Source: a virus
Lineage: Duplodnaviria > Heunggongvirae > Uroviricota > Caudoviricetes
DNA length: 10,741 nucleotides
Reading direction: 5' to 3' (one strand)
IMG/VR virus record: IMGVR_UViG_2537561620_000013
Span: 1 to 10,741 of that record
Numbering within the stretch: the stretch's first letter is position 1; each line of letters begins with the position of its first letter. Positions 3,001 to 6,000 of the stretch are shown here, one piece after another. A program made the position numbers.

Positions 3001-6000
3001 AGCGTGGTGGAGGCATCCGGTGCCAGCCTGGAGAAGGGGCGGCATGACCAGCTGCTTACCGCACTTCGTGCGCTGCTGTTAAGCCGCAAGAATCCGTTTG
3101 GCGATATCAAATCGGATGGCACGGTGAAAACGGCTCTCGAAAACCTTGGTTTGGGAGAAGCAGCTAAAAGGAATGTAGGTACAGGGGCGAATCAGATACC
3201 TGATATGAGCCTGTTCGCGTCAATTAATACCGTAACGGCTGCTGCGCAAAAATTTCCGTCTGGATTAATTTTACAGTGCGGTCAGTTGAATGGTGCCCCG
3301 AATGTATCTTCAACATACGGGATGAGGTTCCCGATGACGTTCTCAAGAGTCATTGCTGTCGTAGTTACATTGAACGTTACTGGCGCGGCTGGGCAGCCGA
3401 CTGTATCGGCGACAAGTGTCCAGAACACTGGATTTAATATTACTGTGTCGCCCGGTTCAGGATACGGTTCATCTGCTGATGCGTATTACATTGCAATGGG
3501 ATATTAACGAAATGTCATATTTTTATTCTGCATCGACAAACGGATTTTATTCGACTGAATTTCACGGCACCAATATTCCTGATGATGCAGTGGAAATCTC
3601 GGAATCAGAGTGGAAAACACTGATTAATGCACAGAGTGTAACAAAAATGATTACCTGTGGTGAGAACGGTCATCCTGTCATTGTTGACCGTCCTTCTCCA
3701 ACACCAGAACAATTAGCCTTAATAAATGATGAAAAGAAATCTGCACTGATAGCAGAGGCAACGAATGTAATAGCTCCGCTTCAGGATGCGGTTGATTTAG
3801 GTATGGCAACAGATGATGAAACGAAACTGTTACTGGCATGGAAAAAATATCGGGTGCTGCTTATGCGTGTTAATGTAGTAAAACCCGAGTGGCCTATGCA
3901 TCCAAATAAATAGACTTGTTAATCTAGGATAATTGTTGGAATAATACTCATTTTTCAGTAGGTTCAGGTAGCCTGGGTATAATGCTCACTTCTACAATGA
4001 TTTCAACTTATTTTATTTAATTGATATTACGAAACTTAACTCATACATAAACAATATGACTCAATACTGTCCTAAATAGCTGCGCAGAAAAGTGCTCCAC
4101 TTTCGCTCAGCCCTTGCTGGGCGAAGCATCAGGAAGGCGTTCTCAGCTAGGTTGTGTTATATCTGGCTTGAGTTTTGTTGCCCATACGCAACACATTACC
4201 CATCTGTAAACGACAAGTGTGACAGAATTAGGTGCAGCTATTTAGACTATATCGACGCAGTAACGATAATAGATATCGAAACTGTACTAGATATTAGCTA
4301 CTTATGGTTACCGGGGGAAGTCTTTTGAGCACTGGTGTTATCAATCGGCTTCAAATAATTCACCAATAAATTATATTGCGATAGCTCATCACCTTCCAGG
4401 TTGTTTATAGCCAGTTTATCAGCGTCACCACCTACTGTTTATGCTTTTATTTCTTTGATTAATAAGTATATGATATTTTAATTCATCTGGTGTATTTCTT
4501 TCTCATGTGTTGGCCGACTGAATATCTGTTCAGTGAAGGGGTAATTTTATGTTTGCACTTCGAACATTCCCTTCAGTTGCCAAGAAAGAAAACCGTAACA
4601 TTTGCGCATTAATTTTAACAGTATAATCTGAGCATAAATATGCGCTATATATCTATAAAAAGGCGCAATTAATTGCGCCTTTTTATCATTTTATCAAAAA
4701 TGGCCCACCGACTGTCCTCGATAGCCAATGGCCAATTTTATCTGATACATATACATAAATACAGGTATATATGATTGCGCAGATAGGATTTGGAATGGTC
4801 ACGCTGAAGCCTATGATTGCTAAAGCCATAGGGATAAATAATTTGGTGATATACTCCATTCCACATATGTTAAGAGTATTTCTTCCAGCTCTTACAATAA
4901 AGTCATTCCCACAAATTATTTTTGCTATAAAAATATTAAATATTATCAAGCCTACCGTGGTGATAATAGTATTAATAGCTTGAATATAACTACTTGATAT
5001 TATGTCTGCATTGAATATTGAGATAATCTTAAAAAGCAAAGGTTTCTGGTTAAGGAGTTGATACGCACTCATTATCGCGGTAATTGAGAAGACAATGAAA
5101 CCAATTTTAGATTTTCCAAAAAACCTGTCACGTGTTAATTCTAAAAACATACATCTACCGAGAGGCAATAACCACCAGTATGCCATAGCGGAGTCTATGT
5201 TCCAAAACCATTGAGGATCTAGTAATGGGTTATGATTGAGCACTGTTTGTGACAACATGAACGATAATAGTGATATGATTAAAATCACTATATTGTTCTT
5301 GACTATTTCTTTAAAGATTGCATCAATTGCTATTATAACAAAAAGGCAGTTTATAAACCATATTGTTCCTACAAATTGGTTGTTTCTAACACCATATATT
5401 ATATCATAAATGTGGCTATATATATAATCAATCGTCTCACCTGAGTTAATTGTGTTTATTATTAATATAGTAAATGCAAAAGTGAAATATGGAATCATTA
5501 ATCTGTAAAACTTTGACTTGATATAATCGAAAATAGATAAGTCATTTTTTTTGATAGTAAAAAAACCAGCAGCGAAAAAGAATAGTGGGACGTGATAACT
5601 AAAAACAAAAGGATACAATTTGCCAGCCCCCAAACCAAGGTGACCTAAATATATAGCAAAAATACCGAGAAATTTTAAAGCATCAACCCAATCATGCCTT
5701 GTTTTTCTGTTGTTGTCGATTTTGTTATTATACATTTAAAGTAGGCTCTCCAGTTTTGTGTGATTTTCAAACACTCATTGCAAATATGAATGCCTGAAAG
5801 TTTATGATTATTAATCAACGAGTTCAATATTAATTTATTATTTTTCAAAGTCGCACTATATAGGCATTTACTTCCGCAGTACCACCGATAGTATCGATAT
5901 CAAATCAGCCTGCGGCCGCGATAACTTTCGTAACATCCTGCCAGCGGCTTTGTTGAATAAATCAGGTTCAAGACAATCGTCTCTGCATCAGGTTAGAGTC

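What the first reader, a model, noticed from the sequence alone, without database searches (positions are those of the whole stretch)
4686..5735. Very AT-rich acyltransferase-3 gene next to the gtr cassette: possible second O-antigen modification function on the same element
The 349-aa polytopic membrane protein carries an acyltransferase-3-like N-terminal motif and a perfect terminator, and sits about 700 bp downstream of the gtr cassette on the same strand. Composition is far from the tail module: by my count roughly 23% G+C in a 60-nt sample (4981-5040) versus roughly 65% in a sample of the baseplate J gene (1441-1500). Shigella converting phages are known to carry O-acetyltransferases (Oac of Sf6, OacB, OacD) and glucosyltransferases; pairing both with an inactivated gtrC would leave acetylation as the only element-encoded modification.
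Basis: partly seen in the sequence, partly recalled or inferred. Interest (0 to 1): 0.55.

Follow-up and report, generated by a model that had tools for sequence, protein, structure and literature searches.

The report
Known O-antigen acetyltransferase gene oacD

Summary
A 349-aa ORF lies at 4686-5735 on the minus strand. It is 31.6% G+C against 57.8% for the baseplate J gene. It matches Pfam Acyl_transf_3 above threshold and ends at a perfect palindromic terminator, 717 bp downstream of the gtr cassette.

The window is contig AKMX01000020.1 of Shigella flexneri K-1770 (= SFL1520, serotype 3b). The protein is 342/349 identical to SfII_25, the only acyltransferase of phage SfII. The literature calls this gene oacD: 6-O-acetylation of O-antigen GlcNAc, O-factor 10. 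The window is collinear with SfII at about 98% everywhere except the gtrC cassette.

The gtrC here is an unrelated DUF6056-type gene. It is dead: a frameshift, W60stop and a hexanucleotide-repeat expansion. The integrase is truncated by IS600.

Two nuances:
- The allele differs from the common E. coli allele by one nucleotide, giving a private C327Y at a mostly conserved Cys in the last helix.
- The published scheme says serotype 3b lacks O-factor 10, so activity in this strain is unproven.

Novelty: already known. Interest is low.

The parts
4686..5735 (-). oacD allele: 349-aa stand-alone acyltransferase-3 membrane protein (exact protein EIQ19066.1 / WP_000282634.1)
   Evidence: ORF. Pfam PF01757 E = 1.1e-12. 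342/349 identical to SfII_25. One nucleotide (C327Y) from the common E. coli allele. Exact-sequence look-up.
4655..4686 (.). Bidirectional intrinsic terminator (perfect palindrome GGCGCAATTAATTGCGCC flanked by A and T runs) between the convergent tail-fibre module and oacD
   Evidence: Terminator scan, sequence, annotated as a terminator at the same site in SfII.
5736..6110 (-). Upstream region of oacD shared with SfII; presumed promoter and ribosome-binding region. One substitution in the 165 bp before the ATG.
   Evidence: Three-way alignment. Homology with SfII ends at window 6110. No consensus sigma-70 match of 9/12 or better in the first 165 bp, so the promoter itself is inferred, not shown.
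6453..7738 (-). gtrC pseudogene of the DUF6056 type (not gtrII): 1-bp deletion in a T run, W60stop and a repeat expansion. Two further 1-bp A-run deletions are seen only in this assembly.
   Evidence: Alignment with the intact 413-aa E. coli gene. The same core lesions occur in two other isolates. Pfam DUF6056 on one fragment at E = 2.9e-06, 26.7 bits, just under the cut-off of 27. No similarity to GtrII.
7182..7246 (.). AAAAAT/TTTTTA hexanucleotide array (10.8 copies) inside the dead gtrC; a 47-bp expansion relative to the intact E. coli gene
   Evidence: Tandem Repeats Finder; alignments.
7735..8652 (-). gtrB (bactoprenol glucosyltransferase, GT2), intact
   Evidence: Pfam Glycos_transf_2 E = 7e-31. 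About 97% nt identity to gtrB of SfII, SfV and SfI.
8649..9011 (-). gtrA (GtrA-family flippase component), intact
   Evidence: Pfam GtrA_DPMS_TM E = 1.8e-14.
9273..9721 (-). 3' remnant of the prophage integrase gene, cut off by IS600
   Evidence: Pfam Phage_integrase covers only profile positions 57-171. Homology with SfII int ends at 9721.
9722..10741 (-). IS600 (IS3 family) copy running to the contig end
   Evidence: Pfam rve/HTH_21. 99.6% identical to elements annotated as IS600.

Best explanation
The ORF is an allele of oacD, the stand-alone acyltransferase-3 (AT3) gene of the SfII family of serotype-converting prophages. Here it sits on a decayed SfII-like prophage of Shigella flexneri K-1770 (serotype 3b).

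Mechanism, by homology. An inner-membrane protein of about 10 helices takes the acetyl group of cytoplasmic acetyl-CoA into a pore lined by the TMH1 Lys21-X10-His32 motif and the TMH3 Lys75-x-x-Arg78 motif. It passes the acetyl group to O-6 of the GlcNAc residue of the O-antigen repeat on the periplasmic side, creating O-factor 10.

The gene is an AT-rich moron with its own upstream region and its own terminator, transcribed convergently to the tail genes. On this remnant the glucosylation specificity gene gtrC is dead and the integrase is truncated. oacD is therefore the only intact modification-specificity gene left.

Shown here: identity, family, synteny, intactness, and the decay of the neighbours. 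Taken from the literature: the enzymatic function of the SfII and 2a alleles. Inferred: that this particular allele (private C327Y) is expressed and active in this strain.
For: - Pfam Acyl_transf_3 above the gathering score.
- 98% aa identity, no gaps, to SfII_25.
- SfII_25 is the only acyltransferase of SfII (PMC3772137). oacD is reported to lie on SfII and to mediate 6-O-acetylation of GlcNAc (PMC9558356; PMC8973906). An oacD deletion in serotype 2a removes the GlcNAc O-acetyl signal in NMR (PMC8623282).
- The window is collinear with SfII over 1-6110 and 7748-9721 at about 97.5-97.8%. The 165 bp upstream of the ATG differ from SfII at one base.
- 14 synonymous and 7 non-synonymous differences against SfII over 216 and 831 sites, so dN/dS is about 0.13.
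- The ORF with the Y327 allele is intact in at least five further assemblies that share the dead gtrC.
- Motif residues K21, H32, K75 and R78 are present. K21 and H32 are invariant in the 23-sequence alignment and at least 90% conserved in the 32-sequence one.
- The AlphaFold2 model is confident (pLDDT 90.7). Its best solved-structure matches are the transmembrane acetyl-CoA-dependent acetyltransferase HGSNAT (Foldseek probability 0.99, TM 0.48).
Against: - The allele has a private C327Y (TGT to TAT) in the last transmembrane helix. That position is Cys in every other sampled allele and in 16 of 20 more distant homologues, so activity could be impaired.
- The published serotype scheme states that O-factor 10 is absent from serotype 3b (PMC7712985). 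The SFL1520 genome paper mentions only the Sf6 oac.
- No sigma-70 consensus match was found directly upstream.
- The two 'first' arginines of the canonical AT3 motifs are lysines here. This is equally true of the experimentally active SfII allele.
Confidence: 0.9

Rival explanations
1. Intact reading frame but functionally dead or silent copy. The private C327Y substitution, or lack of expression from a decayed AT-rich prophage remnant, abolishes activity. The K-1770 O-antigen would then carry only the Oac-dependent RhaI acetyl group, as the canonical 3b structure says.
For: - C327 is conserved in all other sampled alleles and in most homologues, and Y327 is confined to a handful of assemblies.
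- Canonical 3b lacks O-factor 10 (PMC7712985).
- The neighbouring genes are decaying.
- Another S. flexneri allele in the same cluster carries H32Y at the invariant His, so natural loss-of-function alleles seem to occur.
Against: - Only one nucleotide separates this allele from an allele seen on at least 1000 contigs.
- Distant homologues tolerate Leu or Phe at this position.
- The frame has stayed open in at least six assemblies of a lineage in which the adjacent gtrC of similar length collected a frameshift, a stop codon and a repeat expansion.
- The upstream region is virtually identical to that of the active SfII copy.
Confidence: 0.3
2. The enzyme acylates a non-O-antigen acceptor, such as peptidoglycan, enterobacterial common antigen or another glycan, as many other AT3 proteins do.
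For: AT3 proteins have very diverse acceptors (PMC9558356). The same or a near-identical allele is common in E. coli strains whose O-antigens were not examined here.
Against: 98% identity to the protein whose deletion removes GlcNAc O-acetylation of the S. flexneri O-antigen. It also sits next to a gtr O-antigen modification cassette in a serotype-converting prophage.
Confidence: 0.03
3. Spurious ORF or mis-called gene in AT-rich DNA.
For: None beyond the unusual composition.
Against: A 349-codon open frame at 31.6% G+C is vastly improbable by chance (my estimate is about 1e-12). It also has a Pfam hit, 85 homologues at E <= 1e-5, purifying selection and a confident structure model.
Confidence: 0

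Closest known systems
OacD of Shigella phage SfII (SfII_25, AGQ45515.1; the literature cites WP_000282635 as OacD)
   Same: 349 aa, 342 identical, no gaps. Same position between the tail-fibre assembly gene and the gtr cassette, same terminator, near-identical upstream region, same SfII-type tail and gtrAB backbone.
   Different: Seven substitutions: N8S, T12I, T89S, S107N, K142R, A320S, Y327C. The neighbouring gtrC is a dead DUF6056-type gene instead of gtrII, and SfII has ISSfl9 in the spacer. The host is serotype 3b rather than 2a.
E. coli chromosomal allele WP_000282633.1 (e.g. strain YZ_2_2, NZ_CM146015.1)
   Same: One nucleotide different across the CDS. The same DUF6056 gtrC type lies next to it, with the same IS5-family scar in the spacer.
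   Different: The E. coli copy has Cys327 and an intact 413-aa gtrC. The function in E. coli O-antigen backgrounds is untested.
Oac (OacA) of phage Sf6 and OacB of Sf101
   Same: AT3-only, phage-borne O-antigen O-acetyltransferases of S. flexneri. The TMH1 basic-X10-His and TMH3 basic-x-x-Arg motifs can be aligned.
   Different: Only remote similarity: hhalign probability 63%, 18% identity over 131 columns to Oac, and 13% identity to OacB reported in PMC8952252. The acceptor positions differ (RhaI O-2 and RhaIII O-3/4), and so do the phage backbones (P22-like podoviruses).
Human HGSNAT (8vly, 8vli) and the modelled AT3 domain of Salmonella OafB
   Same: Works alike. A multi-helix membrane enzyme uses acetyl-CoA from one side of the membrane, with a catalytic His, to acetylate a sugar on the other side. 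HGSNAT is the best solved-structure match of the model (mechanism in PMC9833829).
   Different: No detectable sequence similarity to any PDB chain and TM-score only 0.48. OafB has a fused SGNH domain that OacD lacks. OacD has Lys where OafB has Arg14 and Arg71.

Membership tests
Acyltransferase-3 (AT3, Pfam PF01757) | Significant match to the family profile above the curated threshold | tested here: met
   48.1 bits against a gathering score of 31, E = 1.1e-12, residues 15-265 on profile positions 2-257 of 326. All 83 near-full-length homologues carry PF01757.
Acyltransferase-3 (AT3, Pfam PF01757) | Integral membrane protein of about 10 transmembrane helices, with no soluble domain in the AT3-only subclass | tested here: met
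   Hydropathy peaks. AlphaFold2 model is all-helical with about 10 long helices, pLDDT 90.7, pTM 0.89. At 349 aa there is no room for an SGNH domain.
Acyltransferase-3 (AT3, Pfam PF01757) | R-X10-H motif in TMH1 (described as absolutely conserved in PMC9833829) | tested here: inconclusive
   His32 is present, invariant in the 23-sequence alignment and at least 90% conserved in the 32-sequence one. The Arg position is Lys21, with the same conservation across this subfamily. It aligns to the Arg of Sf6 Oac. The experimentally active SfII OacD has the same Lys, so the conservative change does not exclude function.
Acyltransferase-3 (AT3, Pfam PF01757) | RXXR motif at the cytoplasmic face of TMH3 | tested here: inconclusive
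   The motif here is K75-F-Y-R78. The first Arg is Lys in nearly all subfamily members. R78 is kept in the enterobacterial members but not in distant ones. PMC8952252 also notes a Lys-for-Arg change in OacD.
Acyltransferase-3 (AT3, Pfam PF01757) | Fold shared with solved transmembrane acetyl-CoA-dependent acetyltransferases | tested here: met
   The top five Foldseek PDB hits are HGSNAT or unnamed membrane proteins, with probability 0.95-0.99 and TMq 0.44-0.48. All other hits have probability of 0.13 or less. No AT3 protein proper matched by sequence in the PDB.
OacD (SfII-type GlcNAc 6-O-acetyltransferase) | Near-identity over the full length to the characterised protein | tested here: met
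   342/349 identical, 0 gaps. Same 90% cluster. The next relatives are at 57% identity or less.
OacD (SfII-type GlcNAc 6-O-acetyltransferase) | Location in an SfII-type prophage between the tail-fibre assembly gene and gtrABC, convergent with the tail genes | tested here: met
   Annotated SfII region. Collinearity of window 1-6110 and 7748-9721 with SfII.
OacD (SfII-type GlcNAc 6-O-acetyltransferase) | All residues conserved among OacD alleles are retained | tested here: not met
   There is a private C327Y. Every other full-length allele sampled, and 16 of 20 more distant homologues, have Cys. This bears on activity, not on orthology.
OacD (SfII-type GlcNAc 6-O-acetyltransferase) | Confers 6-O-acetylation of O-antigen GlcNAc / O-factor 10 on its host | not testable with these tools
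   Needs NMR or serology of K-1770 with and without the gene. Published schemes list 3b as lacking O-factor 10 (PMC7712985).
Oac/OacB/OacC group of S. flexneri O-acetyltransferases | Recognisable sequence similarity, including the DGxRGxLAxxVxxHH, FFxISG and RxxR motifs | tested here: not met
   Only a marginal N-terminal profile match to Sf6 Oac: probability 63%, 18% identity. tblastn against 50,697 phage records finds only SfII among Shigella phages. It is the same superfamily but a different subfamily.

The most novel reading that the evidence does not exclude
K-1770/SFL1520 and its relatives form a serotype 3b lineage whose O-antigen carries both O-factor 6 (Oac) and O-factor 10 (OacD). 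This combination is absent from the published S. flexneri scheme, where 3b is listed without GlcNAc 6-O-acetylation. The gene would have been delivered by an E. coli-type SfII-like prophage with a non-gtrII cassette. The alternative is that the private C327Y is a natural loss-of-function change, which would mark a functionally important residue in the last helix of AT3 enzymes.
Probability: 0.4. Interest if true: 0.25.

Novelty: already known. Interest (0 to 1): 0.12.

Why it matters
It matters little beyond correct annotation. oacD and its product's chemistry were described in 2014, and the gene is already used in genomic serotyping schemes. The only practical point is that a serotype 3b reference strain, SFL1520/K-1770, carries an intact oacD that its genome paper did not mention. 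If active, it would add O-factor 10 to a serotype assumed to lack it. O-acetylation patterns are considered in O-antigen vaccine design and in sequence-based serotype prediction.

Tried and rejected
- NCBIfam gave no hit for the protein even at E <= 1, and PHROGs gave none at E <= 0.001. This subfamily is simply not modelled there.
- Sequence search of the PDB with a family profile found nothing at E <= 1.
- The primary oacD paper (PMC4187690) is not held. Its content is cited through later papers. My recollection that it describes cryptic SfII prophages with a dysfunctional gtr locus is memory only.
- An unrestricted literature search for 'oacD' returned mostly unrelated acronyms.
- Rfam found no RNA family in the window.
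- The promoter scan found no convincing sigma-70 site upstream of the ORF, and the region's hit count equals the shuffled expectation. The promoter is therefore not located.
- I considered that the gtrC lesions might be 454 homopolymer errors. Two A-run deletions may be, but the T-run deletion, W60stop and repeat expansion recur in independent assemblies.
- I considered gtrII as the identity of the dead gtrC and rejected it.
It was rerun with alignment A4.
- I could not obtain the model coordinates, so the distance of residue 327 from His32 was not measured.

Full report
**1. Observation**

The window has a 349-codon ATG-initiated ORF at 4686-5735 on the minus strand. The whole ORF is 31.6% G+C, flat across codon positions, against 57.8% for the baseplate J gene and 56.4% for the tail module.

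The product matches Pfam Acyl_transf_3 (PF01757) at 48.1 bits, above the gathering score of 31, with E = 1.1e-12. It has multiple hydrophobic segments.

Seven bases after the stop codon lies the 18-nt perfect palindrome GGCGCAATTAATTGCGCC, flanked by an A run and a T run. The scan reports it, and the same site is annotated as a terminator in phage SfII. It sits between the convergent tail-fibre genes and this ORF, so it can serve both.

The gap to the upstream gtrC remnant is 717 bp on the same strand.

**2. Source and identity**

An exact-sequence look-up shows the protein is EIQ19066.1 / WP_000282634.1 of Shigella flexneri K-1770. The window is the whole contig AKMX01000020.1 of GCA_000268245.1. 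K-1770 is the same strain as SFL1520, serotype 3b (PMC6424224).

Megablast against phage genomes hits only Shigella phage SfII, at 98.3% over the gene and its flanks. The feature there is SfII_25 'acyltransferase'. The proteins are 342/349 identical without gaps.

The SfII genome announcement lists SfII_25 as the phage's acyltransferase, unique to SfII among the Sf phages (PMC3772137). Later papers state:
- oacD lies on SfII and is responsible for 6-O-acetylation of O-antigen GlcNAc, which is O-factor 10 (PMC9558356; PMC8973906).
- Deleting oacD in serotype 2a removes the GlcNAc O-acetyl signal in 1H NMR (PMC8623282).

The primary paper (Sun et al. 2014, J Bacteriol 196:3656) is not held.

**3. 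Context**

The window is collinear with SfII over 1-6110 (97.8%) and 7748-9721 (97.5%). This covers the tail and baseplate genes, the tail-fibre assembly gene, oacD with its flanks, gtrB, gtrA and the 3' part of int. Only the segment 6110-7748 differs.

- SfII has ISSfl9 and gtrII there.
- The window has a short IS5-family scar and a gtrC of the DUF6056 type. This gtrC has no detectable similarity to GtrII and no counterpart in any sequenced Shigella phage. The nearest phage relatives are about 27% identical proteins of Oenococcus and Enterococcus phages.

About ten complete E. coli chromosomes carry the same arrangement at 98.4-99.9% identity, with gtrC intact at 413 aa.

In the window gtrC is a pseudogene relative to that reference: a 1-bp deletion in a T run, TGG to TAG at codon 60, a 47-bp expansion of a TTTTTA array, and two 1-bp deletions in A runs. 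Two independent assemblies share the first three lesions but not the two A-run deletions. Those two may therefore be homopolymer errors of this assembly.

The integrase is cut at 9721 by IS600. So the element is a decayed SfII-like prophage, and oacD is its only intact specificity determinant. A dead gtrC also fits serotype 3b, which has no glucosylation (PMC6424224, PMC7712985).

**4. The allele**

There are two allele families.
- SfII and S. flexneri 2a type: 21 nucleotide differences from the window, 14 synonymous and 7 non-synonymous. Over 216 synonymous and 831 non-synonymous sites this gives dN/dS of about 0.13, which indicates purifying selection.
- E. coli type: the window differs by one nucleotide, TGT to TAT, giving C327Y.

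Each of the two common alleles is on record on at least 1000 contigs. The Y327 variant is on record in seven contigs from at least six assemblies, so it is real but confined to a small lineage.

Position 327 lies in the middle of the last helix (317-341) of the model. It is Cys in all eight other alleles sampled and in 16 of 20 homologues at 28-56% identity. The rest have Leu or Phe. I could not measure its distance to the active site. This is the main reason for not taking activity for granted.

**5. Family features and mechanism**

Two AT3 motifs are described in PMC9833829.
- R-X10-H in TMH1. Here it is K21-X10-H32. Both residues are invariant in the 23-sequence alignment and at least 90% conserved in the 32-sequence one.
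- RXXR at TMH3. Here it is K75-x-x-R78.

A profile alignment to Sf6 Oac puts K21 and K75 opposite Oac's arginines. The experimentally active SfII allele has the same lysines, so these conservative changes characterise the subfamily rather than indicate inactivity.

An AlphaFold2 model built on 32 homologues is confident (pLDDT 90.7, pTM 0.89) and all-helical. Its only credible solved-structure matches are cryo-EM structures of human HGSNAT, a transmembrane acetyl-CoA:glucosaminide N-acetyltransferase (probability 0.99, TM 0.48).

The most likely mechanism is therefore the general AT3 one. Acetyl-CoA enters from the cytoplasmic face, the acetyl group is handled by the conserved His, and it is delivered to the acceptor hydroxyl on the periplasmic face. 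For OacD the acceptor is O-6 of the O-unit GlcNAc. These steps are inferred from family knowledge and published work on the SfII allele, not shown here.

**6. Relatives**

Outside the cluster of at least 98% identity (E. coli and Shigella only), the nearest relatives are 42-57% identical AT3 proteins of Buttiauxella, Erwinia, Leclercia, Proteus and other E. coli. Beyond those come about 30-37% identical proteins, some from Clostridia and some labelled 'fucose 4-O-acetylase-like'. Similarity to Oac of Sf6 is marginal. PMC8952252 reports 13% identity to OacB.

**7. What remains open**

The published serotype scheme says O-factor 10 occurs in subtype 3a1 but not in 3b (PMC7712985). The SFL1520 genome paper discusses only the Sf6-derived oac. 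Two outcomes are possible:
- K-1770 makes a 3b O-antigen that also carries 6-O-acetyl-GlcNAc, a combination not listed in that scheme.
- This copy is silent or impaired by C327Y.

In favour of activity:
- The single-nucleotide distance from a very common allele.
- An upstream region nearly identical to that of SfII.
- An open frame retained in several isolates whose adjacent gtrC has decayed.

Against activity:
- The conserved Cys is changed.
- The canonical 3b structure lacks the modification.

I put activity at roughly 0.6-0.7.

**8. Verdict**

The gene is an allele of a gene characterised since 2014, in its known genomic setting. Novelty: already known. Interest: low.

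Noticed in passing
window 6453-7738 (-): The gtrC next to oacD is not any of the S. flexneri phage gtr(type) genes. It is a DUF6056-type gene that is intact (413 aa) in about ten complete E. coli chromosomes. Its only phage relatives, at about 27% identity, are in Oenococcus and Enterococcus phages. Its sugar specificity is uncharacterised as far as I could find.
   Followed up: partly
window 7182-7246: An AAAAAT/TTTTTA hexanucleotide array of 10.8 copies lies inside the dead gtrC. 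It is 47 bp longer than in the intact E. coli gene and 9 bp shorter than in two other S. flexneri isolates, so it is an actively unstable microsatellite.
   Followed up: partly
window about 7283 and about 6838 (A runs in gtrC): Two single-base deletions in A runs occur only in this assembly, not in two other isolates of the same lineage. They may be homopolymer sequencing errors of the K-1770 draft.
   Followed up: partly
window about 6061-6161; homology breakpoint with SfII at 6110: An IS5/IS1182-family transposase scar, annotated in the E. coli counterpart, lies in the G+C-richer spacer between oacD and gtrC. This is where SfII instead carries ISSfl9. It suggests that IS activity mediated the exchange of the gtrC cassette.
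   Followed up: partly
window 9273-10741: The prophage integrase is truncated at 9721 by an IS600 copy that runs to the contig end. The same IS occurs three times within 17 kb of the oacD locus of S. flexneri SFBU1023 (L003).
   Followed up: partly
protein P0003 (cluster representative, S. flexneri, 9 contigs): This oacD allele carries H32Y at the invariant TMH1 histidine. It is probably a natural loss-of-function allele circulating in some S. flexneri isolates.
   Followed up: no
window 4686-5735 and alignments A2/A4: Throughout the OacD-like subfamily the Arg of the R-X10-H motif is Lys (K21), and the first Arg of RXXR is mostly Lys (K75). One review calls R-X10-H 'absolutely conserved'; that motif rule is not absolute.
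   Followed up: yes
window 3914-4685: A 770-bp stretch of about 36% G+C between the tail-fibre assembly gene and the oacD terminator is conserved with SfII. It has no annotated gene in SfII or E. coli, no Rfam hit, and no PHROG hit for its 78-aa ORF (4092-4328).
   Followed up: partly
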